A stretch of DNA of 38,108 nt from a virus (Duplodnaviria; Heunggongvirae; Uroviricota; Caudoviricetes), in the IMG/VR virus record IMGVR_UViG_2563366933_000009, positions 1 to 38,108 of that record; one strand, given 5' to 3'. Position numbers and translations under genes: made by a program. Of the stretch, positions 1-29,136 are shown in pieces (positions within the stretch are counted from its first letter, which is position 1; every line of letters starts with the position of its first letter). Below the pieces are notes generated by a model. The model did not search any database. It had not been told where the DNA came from and worked only from the letters and a program-made list of their open reading frames with translations.

Positions 1-94
1 CTTGAGTCTTGAGTCTTGAGTCTTGAGTCTTGAGTCTTGAGTCTTGAGTCTTGAGTCTTGAGTCTTGAGTCTTGAGTCTTGAGTCTTGAGTCTT
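1..94. repeat. Tandem heptanucleotide repeat (CTTGAGT) x13 plus partial unit, running to the window edge
   Basis: Direct reading: 13 perfect CTTGAGT units at 1-91 followed by CTT; the array may continue upstream of the window. Confidence 0.95.
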
Positions 95-172
95 AACATA
101 TTAGTATCCTACGTTATTTTACCACTAGTTACTTTTCTTGTCATTAAAAAGCATTTAAATTTTTATATTTAA

Positions 173-252: not shown

Positions 253-3198
253 TTAGTGCTTCCCTTCTATTAAGTCTAACCTAGCTTTTATTCTTTCTAT
301 TTCTCTGCGCTGCCATGCTGCCTCGATATAGAATAAGAGATCAGGTCTGACCCCCCATCTAGATCCTGCTGGCGTTATTTCAACGCGCTCAATGATGTCT
401 TCCATTACCATCACTGGATTATCATCCTCATCAACAATGATGCTCCCGTCATTATCAGTCAGCGGCATTTCCCTTTGGCCAGTAATGACGTCATCATATA
501 CTGCGGGATAATCGTCATAGCAAAGAAAGGCATAGCGGCATGTTGTGCTTTCTTCTTCCATGAGTCCGTGAGAAATAAGAACATCACGAAGTTGCTGCGC
601 GATTACACCATGATGTATCCTCGCCCCTTCTTCCCCCTTTATAGCGACAGCGTTCAGCCATTTATAAGCGATATACCTGACGTCACCCCAGGCATCCAGC
701 AATGCTTCGTCAGGAGAGACCGGCTCTGTCTTTAATGTTCCGTCACTGGTAACCACAGGATTGGAGCCAAGATAAACTGTCGAGAACCTGTTTCCCGGAC
801 CACCAAGAGCATTTACATTATCAAGATAAGGTTTAACATCTCCGTTCTCAAAAAGATGTTCGAGTGCGTTATATACCGCGCGACGTGGAGTACTGCTTCC
901 GGAACCATGCAACGTTATCATTGCACCATCTGCTGAAGACGTTGTTTCACCGCCGCTAACGATTAATCTCTGAGCGGTAACATCATCAGACGGTACTTTC
1001 TTCGCAATAATGGCGTAATTACCCTCAAGTTTGACTTCCGCGCGAACTTGTCCTGATGTACCTGCATGGACAGTCAGTGACTGGACGGCAACATCATCTG
1101 TGAAATCAACGGGTACAGGAACCGTCCTCACGCCTGACGTCGACATAAAAGTAGGAAGCGTTCTGTTAGGAGTGGCTCCGTAGACAAAATCCCTTGAAAC
1201 AAATTCTTCCTGTTTAATTTTCACCCTGAAACAATACAAATCAGCCGGGTGACCATCGTGAAAATAAGGATATTTTCTGTTGTTATCCCCTATGCTCCAT
1301 GGGTTTAGAAAGTCTTCCCCACCGAAAATGTAGTACAGCCAGTTGTCTTTGATACAAACTGAACCAACACCAACCGCAGAGTTAACTATTCCGCCCTGAT
1401 AAATCTGATCAGTAACATTAACCCACTCTACATTATCCAGACTCCACTCATTGACGTTAACTCTGGTCATAAATGTTCTTGGATAGTTTCCTGCATAACG
1501 GTTATCAGGTTCTCCTCCTTCCCACTCACCAAATGCGCGCTCACTGCCAAAAATAATCAGCTCATCGCCAACTTTGGCAAAAGGAAGGTTTGAGTGATGA
1601 ACATTATTTGGGAAGCGAAGAGAATTCCATGATGTACCTAAATCAGAGCTTCTGTGCAATGAACTACCGGGTTGAGTACTTAATGTCCCCCTGGTCGTCA
1701 GATACAGAATGCCATCATAATATTTTACACATGGCTCAGATGCATTCGCCTCATATTCTGCAGGTATGCGTCTGCGAACAAAGCTACCAGGAGAACCGAA
1801 AGCATCAGAGAAATAGAGTATCCCAAGCTCGCGTGGACCAATATCACCATTATGGTAGCCAACAGCAAAACTGTTATCGCTAATCGTCGCAAAACTGTGA
1901 ATCTCAGTAACAGGAGTGCTTCCGTCAACAAAAGAAGGAATAGTTCCAAGACTGGTTTTTCTCCATGGTGACGAGTGAAATGATGTACCAAAACTCCAGT
2001 ATCTACCCTCGTTATTCTGATCCACATCCTGGGTATTTTGCGTCGTAACTGTAAAAGTATTTTTATCAATAACAGTAGTCACCGTCATATTCCCGGTAAC
2101 ACCTGTAACACCAGAGTTTGAGAAGTTGACAAAATCACCAGCAAATAATCCGTGATCAGTAATGCGAATATAAGCGACTTGCTGATTTGCTGCTTTCGTT
2201 ATACCACCATAAACGCGAAGGCTGCGACTCATTGGGCGATCCCACAACTCTGCAACCTGCAGTTTATTTCCGCTCACAGTCCGCGTCTCAATTACAGCAA
2301 AAAGGCGATTTCTGACAACCCCCATACTCATGCAGTGATAGTTAACTGTGGGATAGTTTTCATGTAAATCTGTAAGCCATTCCGGCGTTGTCCAGGTCTT
2401 CCCGTCATCTCCTGAGCGAACCCATGCAACATGGAGGTTATTTACACCATGACGGTCTCCAGCCATAAAAGGCGCATAGATGACATTGTCATATACAAAC
2501 GTTTTATCCTGCGTCCAGGCGTTGTACCACGGTGTATCTGTAATTTTAAATAACTCTCCCTGGATAAAATCTTCAGAAGCATAAAAAAGAGGCTGGCCCG
2601 GTATTCTCTCAAATAAAAAACGAGCATTTTTAAATCGACTGACATCTGGAAGAGTTGATACTTTAAAAGTAAGCCCTCGCCCATCTATCTTTTCACCACC
2701 TGTTGCAACAGAAAGTAATTCTGATAGAGCTGATGTATCATCATGAACACCATCACCAATAGCCCCCCAACCTCTTACATCATAACTGTCTCTCCATCTT
2801 GCTATCTGAAGTTTTGGGTATTTATTCGCTCCATCTGGGTCTTCTAATTGCTGCCGTAACTGATCAGGATCATACTTCAGCACATTAGGAAAATAGAACT
2901 GCTGTGTACCATACGCATCATAAACAGCCATAGAATGGCCTTGCACGGTTACGAATTTGGCAATCTGTCCGTTATATACCGGATATCCAGCAGCGTTAAT
3001 GATTATTGGTTGCGAAACAGGAATGTGAGAACCGTCTTCGTTCTCTACATAAACCTGAATCTGGTTTTCAGGATTTACAGGGTCAGTGTCAATTTTACCG
3101 ATATAAATTTTGCCATTGGCTACGGCTTTAAAAGAACGAGCCATAGTGAAGAGTTGCGAAGGCATACTTACTACAACATTGGCTGTAATGTCTGTCAT
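253..3198 (-). CDS. Tailspike protein: P22 gp9-type N-terminal head-binding domain fused to a different beta-helix receptor-binding/depolymerase domain and a C-terminal intramolecular-chaperone-like domain
   Basis: 981-aa ORF; N-terminus [11 protein letters not shown]...[12 protein letters not shown]...VLKYDPDQ matches the P22 tailspike head-binding domain; [14 protein letters not shown] motif typical of pectate-lyase-like tailspikes; Shine-Dalgarno TGGAG upstream. Confidence 0.9.
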
Positions 3199-3330
3199 TT
3201 AATTTGCTCCAGATACAAGGAATCGCCGCAGCATGGCTACGGTTGGCATTTATTACATACCGAAACGGTACGATTGTTGATTTGTACAGTAGGTTTTACG
3301 ATGCCATTCCACCCATTTGGTGAGGCATTG

Positions 3331-3588
3331 ATGATGTACAGCAAATACGATGAGGCGCAGTTCCACTTGAGGCTTACACACGAGTTGCACGCTAAGATTA
3401 AGCAGCGTGCAAAAATGAATAACAGGTCTATCAATTCCGAAATTGTGGCTACGATGGAAGAATCACTCTCCAAACCATCACCTGTAAGCGGGTATCGTGA
3501 TGAAGAAGAGAGGCTGGCCTCATTAATCTCGGAACGAGTAAAAGAAGTTGCGGCTGAAATTCTAAGGAAAGAAAAAACCCGCGATTAA
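3331..3588 (+). CDS. mnt: Mnt-like ribbon-helix-helix repressor (Arc/MetJ family)
   Basis: Internal ATG of track ORF 2935-3588 preceded by GGTGAGG; product (85 aa) has NNRSINSEIV RHH motif and an SKPSPVSGYRDEEERLA segment resembling P22 Mnt. The upstream part of the track ORF is antisense to the tailspike 5' end and was discarded. Confidence 0.75.
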   Translation: MMYSKYDEAQFHLRLTHELHAKIKQRAKMNNRSINSEIVATMEESLSKPSPVSGYRDEEERLASLISERVKEVAAEILRKEKTRD

Positions 3589-3603
3589 GCGGGTTTAGTT
3601 TTC
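3572..3603. terminator. Bidirectional intrinsic terminator between convergent mnt-like and antirepressor genes
   Basis: Stem AACCCGC/GCGGGTT with 6-nt loop, flanked by an A-run on one side and a T-rich tract on the other. Confidence 0.55.
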
Positions 3604-3614
3604 ATTATAAAATG

Positions 3615-4343
3615 TTACGCCACATTTGAGCCATGTAGCAGGTGTTGTAGTGCTTTAACGCCTTCAGAATTGTAACGGAACGCCTCTACCTGTTTGCTGG
3701 AATGCGCCGATTTATCCAGGAAGAACTTCCCGTACTGCTCAGTTTTGAGGTTGTTTGCGTTAGCAATGCGACCAATCTTGTTGGCCGTTACTCCAAGCTG
3801 CTCTGCAACCTCCCCTGCTGAGTAGTAATGCTCTTCTATTGCCGGAAGAGGTATTGCATTAAAACCAACAAGCGGGTTGATTATACTTGCTGCCGCTGTC
3901 TGCTTTGCCTCAGGCGCAAGATTTGGCATCAGATCGAACAGATTGGTAACAGCTTCAACCGTCATTTTCAATGTTCGCGCTTGACGATACTCAACAAGTC
4001 CACTCGCTGATTTACCGCTTTTAATGTGCGCTTCTTGCATACTTTCAAGTTGGTCTACCAGTGAGCGGCGAACGGCTTTTGACTCGCGAGCGGCAACTCG
4101 CAATGCTTGCTTGATTGACATCTCAATGATAACCATCGAAGTTTTGTTCGCTTTTTGCACTACACTTTTTGTGTAGTGCTCTCCATCCAATTCATCTTCA
4201 ATTTTCTCGATGAATTTGTTATTACGAACCTCCGGCTCACCGCACTGTCTACGAGCCTGATTTACCATCTCAAGCAGGCGCTGGCTGTCAATGGTTTTAT
4301 CCGTGACAACGGATCCGATGTTTGCTACATTCTTAAAAGTCAT
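3615..4343 (-). CDS. Antirepressor-like protein, KilAC-type C-terminal domain
   Basis: Start taken at internal Met (MTFKNVANIG) with AAGGAA Shine-Dalgarno; C-terminal region has the HTH-like motif seen in phage antirepressor KilAC domains; lies in the ant position of an immI-like cluster. Confidence 0.65.
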   Translation of the reverse strand: MTFKNVANIGSVVTDKTIDSQRLLEMVNQARRQCGEPEVRNNKFIEKIEDELDGEHYTKSVVQKANKTSMVIIEMSIKQALRVAARESKAVRRSLVDQLESMQEAHIKSGKSASGLVEYRQARTLKMTVEAVTNLFDLMPNLAPEAKQTAAASIINPLVGFNAIPLPAIEEHYYSAGEVAEQLGVTANKIGRIANANNLKTEQYGKFFLDKSAHSSKQVEAFRYNSEGVKALQHLLHGSNVA

Positions 4344-4412
4344 TAGGCATTCCTTATGTGGTAGTAAGGGTGTGACATAGGCCGCCAGCAGCACACTGGC
4401 GGTTTTCTTTTT
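4338..4412 (+). ncRNA. Putative sar-like antisense RNA covering the translation start of the KilAC antirepressor gene
   Basis: Plus-strand promoter-like GTGACA -17 bp- TACATT at about 4303-4331 inside the antirepressor 5' coding region, and a plus-strand intrinsic terminator about 75 nt downstream; no plus-strand gene is served by this terminator. Confidence 0.3.
4382..4412 (+). terminator. Intrinsic terminator on the plus strand (antisense to the ant genes)
   Basis: Stem CCGCCAG/CTGGCGG with 7-nt loop followed by TTTTCTTTTT. Confidence 0.55.
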
Positions 4413-4431
4413 GCGCCGTCCGGCGCACCAA

Positions 4432-5070
4432 TCAATGAATCCATTCCTCGCCGCGCAGTTTTGCCAGCATTGGCTGAGCGTTCTTTACGACAAAATTGTT
4501 GGTATCAAGATTCTTCATTTCACGAAGAAGTGATTTCTTGGTTTCTTCTGACATATAGCGAGTCTCATATGCGATATCGTAAATCCTTCCTGAAAGCTCA
4601 GAACAAATTTGCTTCATTCCTGGGTAGATGTGTTTGCACATTTGTTGACTCTTCTCCATCCACAATTGTAAGTAGCAGAGATTAACCAGTTCTTCGTCAG
4701 TAAACTGTTTTGCAATCGGTGAGCATTCTGCCTGCCGATCCAAAATATCCAGCACCCAGCGGCGGAACTCTTTGGCCTTGGGCGTAGAAGCAAACATCGC
4801 CACCAAGTGAGCGCCTCGGAGCGAGTAAACTCTGACCGATTTGTTACGTAAGCTATTGTTTATTCCGTTGACCTTCATATTGAGGGTCAATGACATTGAG
4901 TCGGAAAATTCGTCAGCATTACGGGCATAAATTTGGCTGATGGCATCAGTTTTTTTATAGCCGAGAGCCTTAGCTAGTTCGGCGGAGGTGAACCAGATAG
5001 ACCCGCCCTCTGTTACAGGGTTAAAAGTGAATCCTTGGAAGTTATAATCTGATTTTGCTACAATATTCAT
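4432..5070 (-). CDS. Bro-N domain antirepressor-like protein
   Basis: Start taken at MNIVAKSDYNFQGF with AAGGAAA Shine-Dalgarno 5 nt upstream; N-terminal motif FQGFTF...IWFTSAELAKALGY is typical of Bro-N domains; immediately downstream of the arc-like gene. Confidence 0.7.
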   Translation of the reverse strand: MNIVAKSDYNFQGFTFNPVTEGGSIWFTSAELAKALGYKKTDAISQIYARNADEFSDSMSLTLNMKVNGINNSLRNKSVRVYSLRGAHLVAMFASTPKAKEFRRWVLDILDRQAECSPIAKQFTDEELVNLCYLQLWMEKSQQMCKHIYPGMKQICSELSGRIYDIAYETRYMSEETKKSLLREMKNLDTNNFVVKNAQPMLAKLRGEEWIH

Positions 5071-5143
5071 GTTAGTTTCCTTGCATACGGTTACTGACAT
5101 AGAGGCCCGGTTTGTGTTCGCGCACTGCCGGGCTTCACTATTT

Positions 5144-5320
5144 TTACTGGGCATTAGCTCTTTCCTCTCTCAGGCTTTTAGCCAGTCGCTGCACAATCGC
5201 AGAGTTGATAGAAATTCCATCCATTTCAGCTACGCGTCTGATCTCCTCCTTCATTCGCGCTGGCAAACGAAGCTGGAAACTCTGACTTTTACGACCACTG
5301 TAAAGAACATCGCTCATCAT
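5144..5320 (-). CDS. arc: Arc-like ribbon-helix-helix repressor
   Basis: 58-aa product from internal Met with GGAGA Shine-Dalgarno; FQLRLPARMKEEIRRVAEMDGISINSAIVQRL matches the Arc/Mnt RHH fold pattern; divergent from an mnt-like gene as in P22 immI. Confidence 0.7.
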   Translation of the reverse strand: MMSDVLYSGRKSQSFQLRLPARMKEEIRRVAEMDGISINSAIVQRLAKSLREERANAQ

Positions 5321-5336
5321 CAATATCTCCGTCATA

Positions 5337-5357
5337 ATGACATCACCATGATGTCAT
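5337..5357. promoter_or_regulatory. 21-bp operator-like palindrome in the arc / mnt-like divergent intergenic region
   Basis: ATGACATCA-CCA-TGATGTCAT, perfect 9-bp inverted arms; a second inverted pair CATTATG ... CATAATG lies just downstream. Confidence 0.5.
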
Positions 5358-5440
5358 GACACCATTATGATGCCATTGCTCATAATGTCAATATGATGCT
5401 ACTGTGTTTTTTATTGCTCATATGCCTTGCGAATAAGAAA

Positions 5441-5692
5441 ATGTCAGAAAAAGACGAATCAAATTTCATAGAAAGATTTACGGTTAGAATGCCTGACGGC
5501 ATGCGTAGTGCTATTGCGGAAAGGGCTAAACGAAACGGTCGATCTATGAACTCAGAGATAGTTCAAATTCTTGAGGATGCGTTATCATATGACGTCTCAT
5601 CAGTAGACAAATCATTAGATCTTAAACAAATAAAATCTTTACTTGATAAAATTTCCAACGAGTTACTGGATAGAATCCCAAAAGACACATAA
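5441..5692 (+). CDS. Second Mnt/Arc-family RHH repressor paralog
   Basis: Internal Met start (MSEKDESNFIERFTVRMPDGMRSAIAERAKRNGRSMNSEIVQILEDAL) with RHH signature RxxNGRSMNSEIV; divergent from arc. Confidence 0.6.
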   Translation: MSEKDESNFIERFTVRMPDGMRSAIAERAKRNGRSMNSEIVQILEDALSYDVSSVDKSLDLKQIKSLLDKISNELLDRIPKDT

Positions 5693-5738
5693 CAAAACAT
5701 TATCATCCGGTGTTCTGCTCAAAACTAAGGAGGTTGGT

Positions 5739-6059
5739 GTGTATATATCGCTATCTACCATTTTTTTCATCTGCTTAGCTATTTGGCTTTTAAGAATATG
5801 GCAGGATTGCTCTGTCAGCCATGCTGCTGCGGTGAGAAATAAAAACGCCCTCATAAAAGAAGCTGAAAACGTTGTTTTATCAATGGATCACCTTTCATGG
5901 ACCGAGATGACTACAGGGCAACAAGAGGTTTATGAGTGTGCGATTGAGCGGTTAAGGCTGCTTAAATCGTACAAAAAGAACCACGCACCCGACTCATTCC
6001 CATTCCTGAAAGAATGGCCGAGATGGTATGACCCGAGAAAAGCAACCATCAACCGCTAA
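5739..6059 (+). CDS. Small single-pass membrane protein, paralog of the cI-linked ORF at 30739-31053; function unknown
   Basis: GTG start 6 nt after AAGGAGG; hydrophobic N-terminus ISLSTIFFICLAIWLL; shares a YECAIERL-centred region and a W-P motif with the ORF at 30739-31053. Confidence 0.6.
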   Translation: MYISLSTIFFICLAIWLLRIWQDCSVSHAAAVRNKNALIKEAENVVLSMDHLSWTEMTTGQQEVYECAIERLRLLKSYKKNHAPDSFPFLKEWPRWYDPRKATINR

Positions 6060-6067
6060 CCAACTTT

Positions 6068-8074
6068 TTACTGCCGGGCTTTCTCACTTGAAGCCTGAAT
6101 TAGAGGTGTAAGAGTTTCAGATACCCGTCTGATCGCTCTATCATAAGCAGTACTTCCTTTTGGTGTGTTTGCTAACTTTAGTAATGCGTTCCTCATCGCG
6201 CGTGACTCATAGCCCCTGCCAGCCATACCGATACCAGCTCCAACTGCCGCAACTTTTGCAAACATTGGATTTGTAACAGACGCAAGAGCTGTTATCAGCG
6301 CTGCTGGACCAGCTACCATTTGCCCTGTTAGTGGGCTTGCGGCAGCAGTAGCTGCCTGTCTAGTGGAATCAAGATATTTCATTATCCCATCAAGCTGTTT
6401 CCCATGCTCTCCTCTGAAGAACGTCTCAGCCTGCTTCCGATTCCTTTTCATTTCATTAATAAACTTCTCAACGCTAAGCTTTCCTGAATCGCTTGTCGCC
6501 TTATCCATTGCACGCTGAACAAGTGCTGCTCTAGCATTTTGACGCCCACTATCATCAAGCAATCGATAAAGTTGCGCCCTTTCCGCTGGGCTTTGGCTGA
6601 ATACTAGTTTAGTGACATCTTCTGGCGTTGTTTTACCACTCTGAATAGCTTTTTGGACACGTGTATTGCTCATCATGTCGTTGAACTTTGCCCAAGAACG
6701 ATCAACACGCGACATGTTTTGCGCTTCCTTCGCACCTAGTTTTGCGCCAACCGCTTTTTTCATGTCTGTTGTGTATGCGTTATAAACAGACTGCGCAGCT
6801 TTCTCCAGCGTATCTCTATCGACCTCGTCAGGTGCTGCCATAAAGCGCTTACGTAAGTTTGTACGGTTTTCTCTAGCTAATTGCAGGTTATTTGGACCGC
6901 TGGTGATGTCATTTCTAAACTGTTGAAGGACAGAAACAGCTGAGCGGTCTTGCGATACTCCTGGGCGAGTTAACTTGGAAATCTGCTCATCAATTGCTTT
7001 CACTGTTCCAGTGATGTCAACAGGAGTATCCCCCATCAAACTGATGATCCTGTCGTACCGCTTGCCAGCAGCCTGAATAAATTGCTGCTGACCACGAGTA
7101 GCTGATTGGTAAAGTTGTGCGTCAGATATTCCACCAACATTATCGCTAAATGTTCTAACTAAATCTTCCCTGGCCTTTTGCTGTGCATTTCTTATCCCAC
7201 CTGTTCCGGCTATTGGGATTCGCTCAGCCATAGCTCGTGCTTGCTTACCAATATTTGTTCCCGGTTCCACAAGATCTGTTGTCATCAGTGGCAAGTTGTT
7301 CTGCTTGGCAAAGTCAATCTGAGCTTGTTTTTCAGGAGCTATCTTACCCATAGCAGAACGAGACACTGCGCTTGCGGTGTTTTCTACACCCTTCAGTACC
7401 CCACCAAGACCAGCAGAAATTGCAGTTTGAACTGGATTAACATTCTCACCGCCAGCGATCTTAGTGGCCCCCTGTAAAGCTAAATCAGTAGCGCCTGATT
7501 TTAGTGTTGCACCTACAACAGACGCAGCTCTACCTGCTGGAGTGAATGCAAGAGCATTTGCCAAGAATGACGTTATATCCTGCGGTGACAAACCAGGCTT
7601 GTTAAGTGCATATTCCCCTGAAGGAAGGGTGACTATGGAATTTCCCTTCTCATCCTTCCGGATTTTCCCGCCAATACTTTGCAGTATTTTCTCCTGTGAA
7701 GCGTCGGAACCAAATAGCTGCCCCAATCCAGCACGCAGCGCATCAGTGCTTAAGCTATTAAGCTCTGGAGCAGACCCAACATTTTGCAGTCTCTCCATTT
7801 CTGGTGTCATTCGGCTTTCACCGGTAACGGCATCGCGCATTGCAGCACCTAAAACAGCCCCTTGCTCAGCAGAGCGATCTAGTCCTTCCTTCTGCTGAGT
7901 GGCAAGCTGTGCATATCCTGATGCAAGTGAGTTGTCTGCTGGCGATTGCTGAACACCTTGTTGTGTTGGTGCTGACTGACCAGCAAAATACTCATCAATG
8001 GCGGTGCCAATATCTTCGGTGCTCGTACCATCAGGGAAGGTAAATGTCTTACCGTTTGCAGTAACTTTCATCAT
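6068..8074 (-). CDS. Ejection (injection) protein, P22 gp16-like
   Basis: 668-aa ORF at the gp16 position in a P22-type gene order; Gly/Ala-rich composition; overlaps the upstream gene stop. Confidence 0.8.
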
Positions 8075-9537
8075 TCCACCGTAAATTGAATGCCTGATTT
8101 TGAGGTATATGATCCGGATTGACTCTGCTGCTGTTGGGTATTTGTCGGTTGTTGGCTATTGCTCTGTTGTTGACTATTTGCAGCACTTGAAACCACCAAA
8201 GCATCATAAACGCGACCAGACTGACCACGTAATGAGTTATATTGGCCCTGCATTTTTCGCATTTTTGTTTCAGTAGCAGCCTTGGAATCACCGGGCTGAG
8301 GCAGGTACATTTTGGAATACTCCTGCATCTCTGGCAGAGTAATTGCTGCACCTGTTTCTGGGCGCAAAATTGCATACAAGGCGTCTCTCGCATTTACCAT
8401 ATATTGCTGCTCCGCTGGTGATAGGCTTAAATTTGCAATAGTCCCATCACCAAGAGAGCGATTTATTAATGCAACTCGCTTAGGGTCAATGCTTTTACTA
8501 AGCTGATTCATTGAGTCCATTGAATCTTTTAATCGCAAAGCAAATCCTGCCGCCTTCTTGGAACCCTCATTAGCCTTATCTATGATGCTTTGCGCTTGTG
8601 GCAAGCTAATTGGTTTAATGCCATCACCAGATATAGGTTGGTTTAGTTTTCCTGCTTCCTCGCTGCCATCGGTGTAATACTTAGTTACCGAGCCATCAGG
8701 ATTGGTTTCAACCTTAAGTAATTTCTTAGCATTGGGATTAATTCCCGCCGCTGCCGCAAATGCCGCTGCACCATCTGGATCCGCCTTTAACATTTGCGCG
8801 TACTGATTGTAATTCTGCATTGCGGCTGTTGGTGCATATGCTGACGTTAACGCATTTGCTCGGCTAATATCCTGCCCTCTCGCCTGAAGTGCCTCTCCTG
8901 CCTGATTGCTGCGGATTGTCTCTGCCAGTCTGCCTCGGTCAATCTCACGACCAGCCATCTTGTCCTGAACATTGAAGTAATCAATCGGACCAAGCGCAGC
9001 CATTCCAAGGTGATCAACAAACTCACCAAATCCTGAAGGATTCTGCTGATACATCTGAGCAACGTTATTAGGGTCAACACCGACGCGCGCCAGCTCATTG
9101 GCGTTGTTTTGCAGCCATGATTGCATTGCTTCTGGAGAAGATGACGCAAGACGTGCGCCAGCCGCTAATGTACCGATAGAATTACGCTGTTCTTCATCAA
9201 TGAATCCCATGCCTTTACGAACGGATTCAATCTGGTCTGGATATTGAGTAGCCAACTGACGCAAAGCACCGCGATCACCAGAAGCATAAGCATTAGCGTA
9301 TGCCTGCTGAAATTCTTTCTGCCGCTGAGCCTGCTTTTCCTGCTGAAACACCCCCGCAATACCTGAAAGGCCTTGCAAAGCAGTCAGCCCAACATTGTTA
9401 GCGCCTGAACGCTCAATATCATTGTTCTGCCTGATAAGCTGAAGCGTATTGCCGATGTCATTTACGCTCGGAGCGTTTGAGTTGACGCCGCCGATACCAG
9501 CCAACAATCCGCCATTTGATCCTTGCCAAGTAGCCAT
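8071..9537 (-). CDS. Ejection protein, P22 gp20-like
   Basis: 488-aa ORF in syntenic position between gp7-like and gp16-like genes; ATGA coupling to downstream gene. Confidence 0.8.
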
Positions 9538-9546
9538 GATTACCCC

Positions 9547-10239
9547 TTAAAACAACGAGCCAAGCAATCCGATACCAGCACCAATGCCAGCGCCCCAAGG
9601 TGTTGATGTTCCCAAAAGGCTGGCAAGACCTGCACCTGCAATCGCACCAGACGTGCCACCGCTAATTGCAGTCTGAAGACTTGATGGTTTATTGGCATTA
9701 GCAGCGGCAAGTGCTGCGCTTTGCTGTGCAATGCTGCTCATGTTGTTGGCGTATGTCTGCCCAGCGTTTGCCTGACCTTGCAGCGCGCCAAGCCCAACGT
9801 TTGCCAGATTGTTGTAATTGCTCATCTGATTTGATAACCAAGACTGACCGAGTGTCGGCGCGATCGTAGCCAGTTGATTGCTTGTAGCTGTCGAACCAAG
9901 TCCACCAGTCGCCTCCGCAGCAGCAAGACTCTGGTAACGCGCCTGACCTGCAAGGTCTTTATACTGCTGAGAGTTGTAATACTGATTAAGTGCCTGCCCC
10001 TGACCTTCTAAACTGGAAAGATTCTGAAGCTGGTTAACATACTGCTCCGCAAGCGGCGTGAACGGAGCAAGGTTTTTCATGATCGTCTGCCACTGCTGAT
10101 TTTGCAGGTCTGCGGCATACTTCTGAGCTTCTGCTGCATACTTTGCGCTTTTATCAGAGCTGCCACCTTTCCCGCCTTTTTCAGGGCAATAAGGTTCCTC
10201 GCCGCGCAGTTTTCTGCCCAGCTTAAATGCATATAACAT
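9547..10239 (-). CDS. Ejection protein, P22 gp7-like
   Basis: 230-aa ORF with Gly/Ala/Gln-rich low-complexity sequence and hydrophobic C-terminus, in the gp7 position. Confidence 0.75.
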   Translation of the reverse strand: MLYAFKLGRKLRGEEPYCPEKGGKGGSSDKSAKYAAEAQKYAADLQNQQWQTIMKNLAPFTPLAEQYVNQLQNLSSLEGQGQALNQYYNSQQYKDLAGQARYQSLAAAEATGGLGSTATSNQLATIAPTLGQSWLSNQMSNYNNLANVGLGALQGQANAGQTYANNMSSIAQQSAALAAANANKPSSLQTAISGGTSGAIAGAGLASLLGTSTPWGAGIGAGIGLLGSLF

Positions 10240-26819: not shown

Positions 26820-28271
26820 TCAGAATCCTCCTTTCTTCTTGGATTGCGGTTCCTCGCGTTCACGGCGGCGCATTTCAGCAGACTGTTGGTCTGTGTCATA
26901 AATAGCGCCATTTGCCTGAATGCAATACACCGTGCCGGTATTGCCATGACGATTGAGACGAAGGATTAGTTCGGTTTCACCAGGTGGAACACTGTCATCA
27001 AAAGCGCCTTCACGATGGATCCCAACCCAATAATCGCAATCCTGTTCAATCTGCCCTGTATCTCGTGAGTCACTTGGTAATGGGCGTTTATTGGTTCGGC
27101 TTTCCAGTGCGCGGTTAAGCTGTGTCAGAAGCACAACAACGCAATCAAGCTCTTTGGCAAGGTTCTTCAGTCCTTTGGTGATCATGCCGTAAGCAAGGTC
27201 GTTGCGATCGGCCTTCTCAGCAGTCATTAGTGTCAGGTAATCGACCAGAATCATGCCAACACATCCTTTTTCTCGCTTGATTCGACGGCTTTCGCTGACG
27301 ATTTGAGCCAGAGATAATCCCGGCGTGTCGTCGATGTAAAGCATGTCGATTTCACTCAAGCGATTGGCTGTTTCGATCGCCCTGTTGAAGTCACCATCGT
27401 AATCACCCTGATAGCCGTCATCGGCGTCATTTGTCGCCGGAAGGTAAAAAATATTCGGGTTAACACCAGACTTCTGCCCTACCAGTTTTTCCAGTATCTG
27501 ATCACCTGGCATTTCAAGGCTGAACATCAGAGCGGGCTTTTTCTCATGCACTGCGCAATTGATTGCCATCTGGCTGTATAGCGTCGTTTTCCCCATCTTA
27601 GGGCGAGCGCCAATGACAAACAGAGAGCCTTTCACCAGACCTTTCGGTGACAGCATCCTGTCCAGCGATGGGATCCCTGTGCTCATTCCTCGCTGTTCGC
27701 CTGACGGGTCAAATCGCTTCTCAAGGTCGCTAACCCAGTCTTCCATGACCTCACCAAATGAGCGAAGGCCGCGACGCGATCCGGTTTTTGCATGGTCTGT
27801 CAGTTGCGTGAAAATCGCCTGAATAGCTTCGTACTTCTGCGTTGCAGTCATTCCGTTGCGGGAATAGAGCAATTCCGTCGCTTCAGTCATGCGGTTGATG
27901 GCGTAGCGTTCCATTGCGGTTTCACGAACCTGCATTGCATAGGCAACGATGTTTGCTGCGCTTGGCGTGTTCTTTGCGATCTCAGCGATATAAGCAAAAC
28001 CGCCAACAGACGCCGTTAACGATTTACGCTCCAGTTCATCGAAAAGCGTCAGGCCATCTACTGGCTTTTGCTCCCGGTGCATTCTGGTTATTTCTTCGAA
28101 AAGGATTTTGTGTGGTCGGCTGTAAAATGAGTCAGGCTTCAGCATCGCCAGAACCTTCTGGACGCGCTCACTGCTGTCATCATCCAGAAGCAATCCACCA
28201 ATCACCGCCTGCTCTGCCTCGATGCTATGGGGCGGCGCATAAAAATTATCGGTCATCGTGTTCACCCTCAC
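26820..28271 (-). CDS. Replicative DNA helicase, DnaB family (P22 gp12-like)
   Basis: 483 aa; Walker A GARPKMGKT and DnaB-type N- and C-terminal domain pattern. Confidence 0.95.
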   Translation of the reverse strand: MRVNTMTDNFYAPPHSIEAEQAVIGGLLLDDDSSERVQKVLAMLKPDSFYSRPHKILFEEITRMHREQKPVDGLTLFDELERKSLTASVGGFAYIAEIAKNTPSAANIVAYAMQVRETAMERYAINRMTEATELLYSRNGMTATQKYEAIQAIFTQLTDHAKTGSRRGLRSFGEVMEDWVSDLEKRFDPSGEQRGMSTGIPSLDRMLSPKGLVKGSLFVIGARPKMGKTTLYSQMAINCAVHEKKPALMFSLEMPGDQILEKLVGQKSGVNPNIFYLPATNDADDGYQGDYDGDFNRAIETANRLSEIDMLYIDDTPGLSLAQIVSESRRIKREKGCVGMILVDYLTLMTAEKADRNDLAYGMITKGLKNLAKELDCVVVLLTQLNRALESRTNKRPLPSDSRDTGQIEQDCDYWVGIHREGAFDDSVPPGETELILRLNRHGNTGTVYCIQANGAIYDTDQQSAEMRRREREEPQSKKKGGF

Positions 28272-29136
28272 GAACTTTCAGGTAGGTATTATCGTTAAGC
28301 AGGAAATCAAATCCCTTTTTGTGCCAGACAGTTCCGCGTTGATGGTTTGGGCGCTCTTCGAACATCCATCGGCAATTTTCGCCTACGTAGCTCAAATAAT
28401 TTCTCCAGTCCTGCATCGTGAAACCATGCCCGTCAAGCTGTCGGGTTATCACTCCGGCTTTGCGCCAGAACGTTCGGATCTGGTTTTTACGCTTGTCATT
28501 CAGTGCGCGGATTCTTGGCGCTTCAGGAAGGATTTCGTGGTAAGCATCGACAACATCCTGACAGCTAACGGAAGGTTTTTTCTTGTCAGACTTTTTGTCT
28601 GCTGTGGCACTCTCTAATACGTCAGTATTAGAGATATTATTTATATTATTGTTTATGGACAACCGTTGGACAACCGTTGGACAATCTCCGCTGAGAGCCG
28701 CGCCATTACTGGTGTTTGCGTTGGACAACCGTTGGACAACCGTTGGACAATTTTTTGCCTGAAAATCGTCATATTTAACGATTGTAAACAGGCTAAATTT
28801 CTTCCCCATCGAGCAAATATTAAGCATACCTTTCGACTCAAAAGTCCGTAATAAGCTCCGAACTTTGTTGTCGGGGATGAATGTTTCTCTGACCAGCGAC
28901 GGGCGTCCAGTTATCATCTGACCGCGATCAACAGTTATCGGACCGATATCCGTATTGACGACAGTAGATTCGTGATTAGCCTTGAGGATTAAGTGAAGCC
29001 AAAGATGTACTGCCTGAGAGTCCTTATAGAGCCTGCTGTCCATAAACTGGCGGTGTATAGAGACATACCCCATACTGGATGCCTCCTGATGTTGTACAGG
29101 GTTATGCCTGTAATCAGCTAACTTAACGACGCCCAT
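28246..29136 (-). CDS. Replication initiator (lambda O / P22 gp18 functional analogue) with ori iterons inside the gene
   Basis: 296-aa ORF upstream of the helicase; contains direct 11-bp iterons that translate to the repeated peptide PTVVQRLS. Confidence 0.8.
   Translation of the reverse strand: MGVVKLADYRHNPVQHQEASSMGYVSIHRQFMDSRLYKDSQAVHLWLHLILKANHESTVVNTDIGPITVDRGQMITGRPSLVRETFIPDNKVRSLLRTFESKGMLNICSMGKKFSLFTIVKYDDFQAKNCPTVVQRLSNANTSNGAALSGDCPTVVQRLSINNNINNISNTDVLESATADKKSDKKKPSVSCQDVVDAYHEILPEAPRIRALNDKRKNQIRTFWRKAGVITRQLDGHGFTMQDWRNYLSYVGENCRWMFEERPNHQRGTVWHKKGFDFLLNDNTYLKVREGEHDDR
28657..28750. repeat. Replication origin iterons: five direct copies of an 11-bp unit (CCGTTGGACAA) in two clusters, followed by an AT-rich tract
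   Basis: Two copies plus a partial copy at about 28657-28690 and three at about 28718-28750; AT-rich run at about 28751-28800. Confidence 0.8.

What the first reader, a model, noticed from the sequence alone, without database searches (positions are those of the whole stretch)
253..3198. Chimeric tailspike: P22 head-binding domain on a different receptor-binding body with a probable self-cleaving C-terminal chaperone
The first ~110 aa match the P22 gp9 head-binding domain. The remaining ~870 aa differ from P22 and carry a pectate-lyase-like motif ([14 protein letters not shown]). The C-terminal ~150 aa resemble the S74-type intramolecular chaperone domain seen in endosialidase-like tail fibres. 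This implies a different polysaccharide receptor and a maturation step absent in P22.
Basis: partly seen in the sequence, partly recalled or inferred. Interest (0 to 1): 0.5.

Follow-up and report, generated by a model that had tools for sequence, protein, structure and literature searches.

The report
CUS-3-type K1 endosialidase tailspike gene

Summary
Window 253-3198 (minus strand) is one intact 981-aa ORF. Its DNA is 99.1% identical to siaK1 of phage CUS-3, annotated "endosialidase tailspike protein". The proteins differ at 10 of 981 residues. Pfam splits it cleanly:
- P22 head-binding domain, aa 1-113
- endosialidase N-terminal extension, 146-212
- six-bladed beta-propeller, 213-662, with an inserted beta-barrel at 324-406
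- endosialidase stalk, 663-817
- Peptidase_S74 chaperone, starting at Ser818

Solved structures of phage K1F endosialidase match at E=0 for the catalytic part (66% identity). The intramolecular chaperone structure 3GW6 matches at 5.7e-96 (56% identity). All reported catalytic residues are conserved (H250, R456, E488, R503, R554), as is the Ser818/Lys823 self-cleavage dyad.

The "pectate-lyase-like" motif is only a 23-residue sub-threshold resemblance (PF12708, 13.9 bits against a cut-off of 27). It lies in the endosialidase N-terminal cap, and the enzyme body is a sialidase propeller, not a pectate-lyase beta-helix.

The gene sits at the P22 gene-9 position of a P22-like (Lederbergvirus) genome, next to the phase-variable neuO gene. 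At least 80% of the gene is present in 181 of 5426 complete E. coli genomes. Already known; low interest.

The parts
253..3198 (-). Complete tailspike gene (981 codons plus stop at 253-255). Orthologue of CUS-3 siaK1, the endosialidase tailspike. Precursor mass 109.3 kDa.
   Evidence: ORF. 99.1% DNA identity over 100% of the gene to CP000711 siaK1. 10 of 981 aa differ. Mass; PMC5380687 lists 109 kDa for the CUS-3 protein.
2860..3198 (-). aa 1-113: P22-type head-binding (virion attachment) domain.
   Evidence: PF09008 E=1.5e-66, full profile. Sf6 gp14 (7SG7) 92% identity and P22 gp9 76% identity. DNA similarity to other P22-like phages (Sf101, Kapi1, E212, Huey) starts at window 2857-2860, the end of this domain.
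2764..2859 (-). aa 114-145: linker between the attachment domain and the enzyme. Covered by no Pfam profile.
   Evidence: Gap between PF09008 (1-113) and PF12218 (146-212). The Sf6/P22 alignments end at aa 115-127, and the endoNF crystal construct aligns from aa 145.
2563..2763 (-). aa 146-212: endosialidase N-terminal extension (cap).
   Evidence: PF12218 E=8.9e-37. PF12708 only 13.9 bits, below the cut-off of 27. Motif position.
1213..2562 (-). aa 213-662: six-bladed beta-propeller catalytic domain. The equivalents of endoNF H350, R549, E581, R596 and R647 are H250, R456, E488, R503 and R554.
   Evidence: PF12217 E=3.2e-233. 1V0E/3GVL E=0. Residues checked. Catalytic residue list from PMC12632334.
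1981..2229 (-). aa 324-406: beta-barrel domain inserted in the propeller. In endoNF this is a polysialic-acid binding site.
   Evidence: PF12195 E=1.2e-46. Binding-site role in K1F from PMC12632334.
748..1212 (-). aa 663-817: endosialidase stalk (triple beta-helix region), ending at Thr817, the predicted C-terminus of the mature protein (90.6 kDa).
   Evidence: PF12219 E=7.5e-78. The endoNF crystal chains end at the aligned '...GSNPIVT'. Mass.
256..747 (-). aa 818-981: C-terminal intramolecular chaperone / autoprotease domain (Peptidase S74). Ser818 and Lys823 form the dyad, Asp819 is the endoNF N912 equivalent and Gly864 the G956 equivalent. Predicted to be released as an 18.7 kDa fragment.
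   Evidence: PF13884 starts exactly at aa 818. 3GW6 E=5.7e-96, where the crystal has Ala (VTANGERK) at the position aligned with window Ser818 (VTSDGTLK). Residues. Dyad and essential residues from PMC3742443.
1..99 (-). Neighbour, not part of the tailspike: 5' end of neuO (ATG at 99-97) followed by at least 13.4 AAGACTC heptad repeats that run off the window edge.
   Evidence: Sequence. TRF: period 7, 100% match, window 1-94. CUS-3 annotates the poly(psi) neuO repeat directly downstream of siaK1. PMC8653822.

Best explanation
The ORF encodes the receptor-destroying tailspike of a CUS-3-like, P22-like temperate phage of E. coli K1.

Proposed mechanism:
1. A 109-kDa precursor is made.
2. Its C-terminal 164-aa chaperone domain nucleates trimerisation and folding of the triple-beta-helix stalk.
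3. Once the trimer is folded, the Ser818/Lys823 dyad cuts the Thr817-Ser818 bond. This releases the 18.7-kDa chaperone and leaves a 90.6-kDa mature subunit.
4. The N-terminal head-binding domain docks the trimers onto the tail hub, as in P22 and Sf6.
5. The six-bladed beta-propeller, helped by the beta-barrel and stalk binding sites, binds and cleaves alpha-2,8-polysialic acid. The virion can then tunnel through the K1 capsule to the outer membrane.

Shown here: the domain architecture, near-identity to the CUS-3 tailspike, conservation of every catalytic and cleavage residue, and the genomic position. Inferred by homology: cleavage, trimerisation, enzyme activity and K1 specificity.
For: - Intact 981-aa ORF.
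- Pfam architecture: Head_binding, End_N_terminal, End_beta_propel (with End_beta_barrel), End_tail_spike and Peptidase_S74, all well above the gathering cut-offs.
- PDB matches: endoNF 1V0E/3GVL at E=0 and phage phi92 endosialidase 4HIZ at 8.6e-273. The chaperone structure 3GW6 matches at 5.7e-96, and the Sf6/P22 head-binding structures at 1e-47 to 3e-67.
- Identities: 66% (catalytic part), 56% (chaperone), 92% (Sf6 N-terminus), 76% (P22 N-terminus).
- DNA is 99.1% identical to CUS-3 siaK1, whose annotation records endo-alpha-sialidase activity with direct-assay evidence. Only 10 aa differ.
- H250, R456, E488, R503, R554, S818, D819, K823 and G864 are all in place. Their roles come from PMC12632334 and PMC3742443.
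- Genomic context is P22-like. The ejection-protein genes gp7, gp20 and gp16 are followed by an 'ant moron' with Arc-like repressors and antirepressors, then the tailspike, then neuO. Whole-window similarity to CUS-3 is 95.9% over 67% of the first 25 kb.
- The literature already describes this chimera (PMC5380687).
Against: Nothing in the sequence argues against it. The limits are these:
- No experiment was done on this allele.
- Two of the 10 substitutions relative to CUS-3 lie in the stalk (G767 versus R, T807 versus I) and one in the chaperone (A832 versus T). Their effect is untested.
- The primary papers on CUS-3 (Stummeyer 2006, King 2007, Parent 2014) could not be read here. Experimental activity of the CUS-3 protein therefore rests on the GenBank annotation and a review.
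Confidence: 0.95

Rival explanations
1. The body is a pectate-lyase / rhamnogalacturonase-type beta-helix depolymerase acting on a non-sialic-acid polysaccharide, as the motif noted by the reader would suggest.
For: The GAxGDGxxDDTxA-type motif at aa 144-157 gives a weak PF12708 match (E=0.048, 13.9 bits, 23 residues).
Against: - The PF12708 score is below the cut-off of 27 and covers only profile positions 4-26 of 213.
- The same residues belong to End_N_terminal (129 bits).
- They are followed by a sialidase beta-propeller (773.6 bits).
- The region aligns end to end with the endoNF crystal structures.
Confidence: 0.01
2. The gene is a decaying remnant in a defective prophage: a tailspike that is no longer active or no longer processed.
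For: Related prophages do carry damaged copies. In phiv205-1 the homologous gene is interrupted by transposase genes within the head-binding region. The CUS-3-like element here is a mosaic, with only 67% of the first 25 kb matching CUS-3.
Against: - The ORF is full length, with the same start, stop and length as CUS-3 siaK1.
- All catalytic and cleavage residues are intact.
- The structural gene set around it appears complete.
Confidence: 0.03
3. It is an endosialidase with altered substrate preference relative to CUS-3/K1F, for example for O-acetylated polysialic acid or the K92 alpha-2,8/2,9 polymer. The cause would be the 10 substitutions and the 7-residue insertion relative to endoNF.
For: - It is 66% rather than 100% identical to endoNF, with a 7-residue insertion at aa 422-428.
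- neuO, which O-acetylates the same polymer, lies next door.
Against: - It is 99% identical to the CUS-3 enzyme, whose host is a K1 strain.
- The insertion is shared with CUS-3: the two proteins have equal length and no indels.
- None of the substitutions touches a listed catalytic residue.
Confidence: 0.05

Closest known systems
Phage CUS-3 SiaK1 endosialidase tailspike (ABQ88383.1 / CAJ29292.1; GenBank CP000711)
   Same: Same length (981 aa), same domain order, 99.1% DNA identity and 99.0% protein identity. Same genomic position, between the ant region and neuO.
   Different: Ten substitutions: V9I, P43T, I59V, T98A, P121T, A207V, F646V, G767R, T807I, A832T (window residue first). 18 of the 26 nucleotide differences lie in the first 361 nt. 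The upstream ant region differs from CUS-3 beyond window position 3255.
Phage K1F endosialidase endoNF (PDB 1V0E, 3GVL, 3JU4; chaperone 3GW6)
   Same: Same catalytic propeller, inserted barrel, stalk and C-terminal chaperone. 66% identity over aa 146-817 and 56% over aa 818-979. All catalytic residues, the Ser/Lys dyad and the essential Gly are conserved.
   Different: K1F carries a T7-tail-fibre-type N-terminal adaptor instead of the P22 head-binding domain (PMC5380687). The window protein has a 7-residue insertion at aa 422-428, a longer loop in the chaperone, and Asp at the N912 position.
P22 gp9 and Sf6 gp14 tailspikes
   Same: Head-binding domain aa 1-113: 76% identity to P22 and 92% to Sf6. 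Same gene position in a syntenic P22-like late operon.
   Different: The P22 and Sf6 chains match the query only in their N-terminal head-binding region. Nothing in them matches the endosialidase body or the S74 chaperone. That their bodies are right-handed beta-helix endorhamnosidases is from my own knowledge.
Tail fibre of Escherichia phage vB_EcoP_ZX5 (Uetakevirus, QTH80017.1)
   Same: The endosialidase body and chaperone are 99.6% identical in DNA over window-gene nt 522-2914. The aligned proteins are 96% identical over 847 aa, with the same four endosialidase Pfam domains plus S74.
   Different: It has a different, longer N-terminus of about 190 aa with no Head_binding domain. Near-identity begins only at about aa 175, inside the End_N_terminal cap, and the last ~15 residues also differ.

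Membership tests
P22-type tailspike head-binding domain (Pfam PF09008) | N-terminal ~110 residues match the family profile above the curated cut-off | tested here: met
   222.1 bits against a cut-off of 24; aa 1-113 cover profile positions 1-113 of 113.
P22-type tailspike head-binding domain (Pfam PF09008) | Close sequence homology to solved head-binding domains (P22 1LKT/2VNL, Sf6 7SG7) | tested here: met
   E=3.2e-67 for Sf6 (92% identity) and 1e-46 to 4e-53 for P22 (76% identity).
P22-type tailspike head-binding domain (Pfam PF09008) | Encoded at the gene-9 position of a P22-like late operon, after the ejection-protein genes and the ant region | tested here: met
   P22_gp7 (447 bits), Inj_translocase (gp20) and a DNA transfer protein (phrog_770), then Arc-like, Bro-N and P22_AR_C genes upstream of the ORF.
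P22-type tailspike head-binding domain (Pfam PF09008) | Trimers physically bind the tail hub of the virion | not testable with these tools
   Needs cryo-EM or binding assays. A CUS-3 virion reconstruction exists (Parent et al. 2014, cited), but the paper could not be read.
Phage endosialidase (endo-N-acetylneuraminidase; Pfam PF12217/PF12195/PF12219/PF12218) | Six-bladed beta-propeller catalytic domain with inserted beta-barrel, followed by the endosialidase stalk | tested here: met
   PF12217 773.6 bits, PF12195 157 bits, PF12219 260.5 bits, PF12218 125.1 bits. End-to-end alignment to 1V0E/3GVL at E=0.
Phage endosialidase (endo-N-acetylneuraminidase; Pfam PF12217/PF12195/PF12219/PF12218) | Conservation of the catalytic and substrate-binding residues reported for endoNF (H350, R549, E581, R596, R647) | tested here: met
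   H250, R456, E488, R503 and R554 occupy the aligned positions. Residue list from PMC12632334.
Phage endosialidase (endo-N-acetylneuraminidase; Pfam PF12217/PF12195/PF12219/PF12218) | Hydrolysis of internal alpha-2,8 linkages of polysialic acid | not testable with these tools
   Only indirect evidence: the 99%-identical CUS-3 protein is annotated with endo-alpha-sialidase activity, evidence code IDA, PMID 16689790.
Peptidase S74 / C-terminal intramolecular chaperone domain (Pfam PF13884) | Profile match above the cut-off, located at the extreme C-terminus after a triple-beta-helix stalk | tested here: met
   41.5 bits against a cut-off of 22; aa 818-878, starting exactly at the predicted cleavage serine.
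Peptidase S74 / C-terminal intramolecular chaperone domain (Pfam PF13884) | Catalytic Ser-Lys dyad (endoNF S911/K916 equivalents) and the essential Gly (G956 equivalent) | tested here: met
   S818 and K823 lie in 'VVT|SDGTLK' and G864 in 'IHHGVIA'. Roles from PMC3742443. The N912 position is Asp819, the residue found at that position in MYRF (D579).
Peptidase S74 / C-terminal intramolecular chaperone domain (Pfam PF13884) | Homology to a solved chaperone-domain fold | tested here: met
   3GW6 E=5.7e-96 over aa 698-979. Also phi29 neck appendage 3GUD at 3.2e-10, and 9VVR, 7Y5S and 6EU4. 56% identity to the endoNF domain.
Peptidase S74 / C-terminal intramolecular chaperone domain (Pfam PF13884) | Autocatalytic release of the domain after trimer folding | not testable with these tools
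   Needs SDS-PAGE of the expressed protein and an S818A control. Predicted products are 90.6 and 18.7 kDa.
Pectate lyase 3 / rhamnogalacturonase A-like beta-helix (Pfam PF12708) | Profile match above the cut-off across the beta-helix domain | tested here: not met
   13.9 bits against a cut-off of 27, E=0.048. Only 23 residues matched, on profile positions 4-26 of 213. No PF12708 hit at all in the full-length scan at E<=0.01.

The most novel reading that the evidence does not exclude
The endosialidase-plus-chaperone cassette was exchanged very recently between different temperate podophage genera, through junctions that do not coincide. The genera are P22-like Lederbergvirus (this window, CUS-3) and epsilon15-like Uetakevirus (ZX5). 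On the P22-like side, similarity to other P22-like phages ends exactly at the head-binding domain border (codon 113/114, window 2857-2860). On the ZX5 side, 99.6% DNA identity begins only at about codon 175, inside the enzyme's N-terminal cap. The cap itself would then be a recombination-tolerant adaptor. The principle of module exchange is already published for CUS-3 and K1F, so only the specific junction would be new.
Probability: 0.3. Interest if true: 0.2.

Novelty: already known. Interest (0 to 1): 0.08.

Why it matters
It matters little as a discovery. The protein is the textbook example of tailspike module swapping and of the S74 intramolecular chaperone. The identification is still useful for annotation. 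It marks the window as a CUS-3-like prophage of a K1-capsulated E. coli, a lineage that includes neonatal-meningitis, extraintestinal pathogenic (ExPEC) and avian pathogenic (APEC) strains. It also links the tailspike to the adjacent neuO capsule O-acetylation switch. RefSeq names the near-identical genes in E. coli genomes only 'phage tailspike protein', so a more specific label of 'endosialidase tailspike' is justified.

Tried and rejected
- Pectate-lyase reading: tested with a permissive Pfam scan of aa 111-221. Only a sub-threshold 23-residue match was found, so it was rejected.
- Pseudogene or defective copy: rejected. The ORF length equals CUS-3 and the key residues are intact.
- Primary literature: Stummeyer 2006 (PMID 16689790), Parent 2014 (PMC4157081), King 2007 (PMC1951898) and Schwarzer 2009 (PMC2666599) are not held in the library. 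I relied on a review and on papers citing them.
- tRNA scan for an attachment site in the window: none found.
- Structure prediction, fold search and the large protein-database searches were deliberately not run. Matches of 56-92% identity to solved structures already answer the fold question better than a model would.
- Antisense ORFs inside the gene (475-735, 1590-1883, 1725-2069 and others) have no support and are treated as chance ORFs.
Full report
**Observation**

Window 253-3198 holds one uninterrupted ORF of 981 codons on the minus strand, from an ATG at 3198 to a stop at 253-255. The other ORFs listed inside it are short antisense or out-of-frame ORFs with no support.

A Pfam scan divides the protein without gaps or overlaps, apart from one nested insertion:

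| Domain | Residues | E-value |
|---|---|---|
| Head_binding PF09008 | 1-113 | 1.5e-66 |
| End_N_terminal PF12218 | 146-212 | 8.9e-37 |
| End_beta_propel PF12217 | 213-662 | 3.2e-233 |
| End_beta_barrel PF12195 (nested) | 324-406 | 1.2e-46 |
| End_tail_spike PF12219 | 663-817 | 7.5e-78 |
| Peptidase_S74 PF13884 | 818-878 | 1.6e-10 (41.5 bits, cut-off 22) |

**Identity**

The gene is 99.1% identical in DNA over its whole length to siaK1 of Enterobacteria phage CUS-3 (CP000711). It is 99.4% identical to the tail fibre gene of Escherichia phage vB_EcoP-720R6.

The CUS-3 record annotates the product as 'endosialidase tailspike protein', with endo-alpha-sialidase activity supported by direct assay (PMID 16689790). 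The translated proteins have equal length and differ at 10 of 981 positions.

The precursor mass computed here, 109.3 kDa, equals the 109 kDa that a review lists for the CUS-3 protein (PMC5380687). That review already uses this protein as the example of tailspike module exchange. [quoted passage not shown]

Among 5426 complete E. coli genomes, 181 hold at least 80% of the gene. About a thousand more match only in part at 90-95% identity, most likely through the widespread head-binding module.

**Structural homology**

- Catalytic part: solved structures of phage K1F endosialidase (1V0E, 3GVL, 3GVJ, 3GVK) align from aa 145/146 to aa 817 at E=0. The phi92 endosialidase 4HIZ aligns at 8.6e-273. 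Identity to endoNF over aa 146-817 is 66%, with a single 7-residue insertion at aa 422-428.
- N-terminus: the first 113 residues are 92% identical to Sf6 gp14 (7SG7) and 76% identical to P22 gp9. The attachment module is therefore closer to Sf6 than to P22.
- C-terminus: aa 698-979 align with 3GW6, the crystal structure of the endoNF stalk plus intramolecular chaperone, at E=5.7e-96. Identity is 56% over the chaperone proper. Weaker matches to other solved chaperone-bearing proteins support family membership: phi29 neck appendage 3GUD, and 9VVR, 7Y5S and 6EU4.

The fold follows from strong homology to a solved structure.

**Functional residues**

The crystal chains of endoNF end at '...GSNPIVT'. 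In 3GW6 the next residues read 'ANGERK', and the window has 'SDGTLK' at the aligned positions. I take the Ala to be the Ser911-to-Ala substitution of the uncleaved crystal construct; that reading comes from the alignment and my own knowledge.

The predicted scissile bond is therefore Thr817-Ser818, with Ser818 and Lys823 as the dyad. In endosialidases the equivalent serine and lysine form the catalytic dyad of the auto-cleavage, and N912 and G956 are essential (PMC3742443). Here G864 is conserved. The N912 position is Asp819, the residue that MYRF has at that position.

The residues reported as catalytic or substrate-binding in endoNF are H350, R549, E581, R596 and R647 (PMC12632334). They correspond to H250, R456, E488, R503 and R554, and all are conserved. 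None of the 10 differences from CUS-3 touches them.

**The pectate-lyase motif**

[14 protein letters not shown] lies at aa 144-157. A permissive Pfam scan of aa 111-221 finds PF12708 (rhamnogalacturonase A / pectate lyase-like) at only 13.9 bits (cut-off 27, E=0.048). The match covers 23 residues on profile positions 4-26 of 213. End_N_terminal scores 129 bits on the same stretch.

The resemblance is thus a short shared N-terminal cap motif, not family membership. What follows it is a sialidase propeller, not a beta-helix.

**Surroundings**

The window is a P22-like (Lederbergvirus) genome. CUS-3 matches 67% of the first 25 kb at 95.9% identity. The early region is a lambdoid mosaic shared with many phages.

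Upstream of the tailspike in the direction of transcription lie:
- homologues of P22 gp7 (9547-10239)
- homologues of gp20 (8071-9537)
- a gp16-like DNA transfer protein (6068-8074)
- an 'ant moron' with three Arc-like ribbon-helix-helix genes, a Bro-N/P22_AR_C antirepressor (4432-5154) and a second antirepressor-family gene (3615-4394)

This is the canonical gene-9 position. The ant region is known to be the most fluid part of the late operon (PMC2629481). Consistent with that, similarity to CUS-3 ends at window ~3255.

Downstream, window 99-1 is the start of neuO, whose AAGACTC heptad repeat runs off the window edge. This matches CUS-3, where the poly(psi) repeat of neuO follows siaK1. NeuO O-acetylates the same polysialic acid and is phase-variable through this repeat (PMC8653822).

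**Module junctions**

DNA similarity to other P22-like phages with different tailspike bodies (Sf101, Kapi1, E212, Huey) starts at window 2857-2860. That is exactly the end of codon 113, the head-binding domain border.

Conversely, the Uetakevirus vB_EcoP_ZX5 carries the same endosialidase-plus-chaperone cassette. It is 99.6% identical in DNA over gene nt 522-2914, sits on a different ~190-aa N-terminus, and near-identity begins at about aa 175, inside the N-terminal cap.

PHROG matches show the same modularity. More than fifteen tailspike families match only aa 1-~125, while phrog_1171 matches aa 120-980. In phiv205-1 the homologous gene is interrupted by transposase genes in the head-binding part.

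**Mechanism**

These steps are inferred by homology; only the architecture and residue conservation are shown here.
1. A 109-kDa precursor is made.
2. The C-terminal domain chaperones trimerisation and triple-beta-helix folding, then removes itself at Thr817|Ser818. This yields 90.6-kDa mature subunits and an 18.7-kDa fragment.
3. The head-binding domain attaches the trimers to the tail.
4. The propeller depolymerises the K1 capsule so that the phage can reach the cell surface.

P22 gp9 matches this protein only in its N-terminal ~120 residues and shows no match to the S74 region. The maturation step is therefore indeed absent from P22.

**Verdict**

The object is a near-identical allele of a protein that has been cloned and assayed. 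Its homologues have solved structures, and a CUS-3 virion reconstruction has been published (Parent 2014, citation only). It is already known and of low interest.

Noticed in passing
window 1-99 (minus strand): The window begins inside the AAGACTC heptanucleotide repeat (at least 13.4 perfect copies) at the 5' end of neuO. Its ATG is at 99-97, and a promoter-like site lies at 144-116. neuO is the phase-variable polysialic-acid O-acetyltransferase contingency locus of CUS-3. The repeat number, and so the on/off phase, cannot be read because the window edge cuts the array. This may reflect an assembly break at the repeat.
   Followed up: partly
L003 (MW722083.1, phage vB_EcoP_ZX5) 1803-4922; window gene nt 522-2914: A Uetakevirus (epsilon15-like) temperate phage carries the same endosialidase-plus-chaperone cassette at 99.6% DNA identity, on a different ~190-aa N-terminus. 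The junction lies inside the End_N_terminal cap (about aa 175), not at a domain border.
   Followed up: partly
L004 (MN340231.1, phage phiv205-1) 1-5239: The homologous tailspike gene in phiv205-1 is split by an insertion carrying two transposase genes. Only gene nt 208-2946 match contiguously, and a separate small CDS annotated 'bifunctional tail protein' lies upstream. That prophage therefore probably has a disrupted tailspike.
   Followed up: no
window 3199-6060: The 'ant moron' between the gp16 homologue and the tailspike differs from that of CUS-3; similarity stops at about 3255. It holds three Arc-like ribbon-helix-helix genes (about 3334-3588 +, 5144-5335 -, 5393-5692 +), a Bro-N/P22_AR_C antirepressor (4432-5154 -) and a phrog_1726 antirepressor (3615-4394 -). 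A bidirectional terminator-like hairpin lies at 3575-3596.
   Followed up: partly
window 28656-28750: Two perfect arrays of an 11-bp repeat (TGGACAACCGT / CGTTGGACAAC; 2.6 and 2.9 copies) lie inside the 296-aa ORF at 28246-29136 (minus strand). That region matches lambdoid replication protein O genes. The arrays look like origin iterons within an O-type gene.
   Followed up: no
window 253-3198 versus RefSeq E. coli genomes: In RefSeq E. coli chromosomes the near-identical genes (99.5-99.6%) are named only 'phage tailspike protein', and in several phage records 'tail fibers protein'. The specific endosialidase identity is lost in routine annotation.
   Followed up: no
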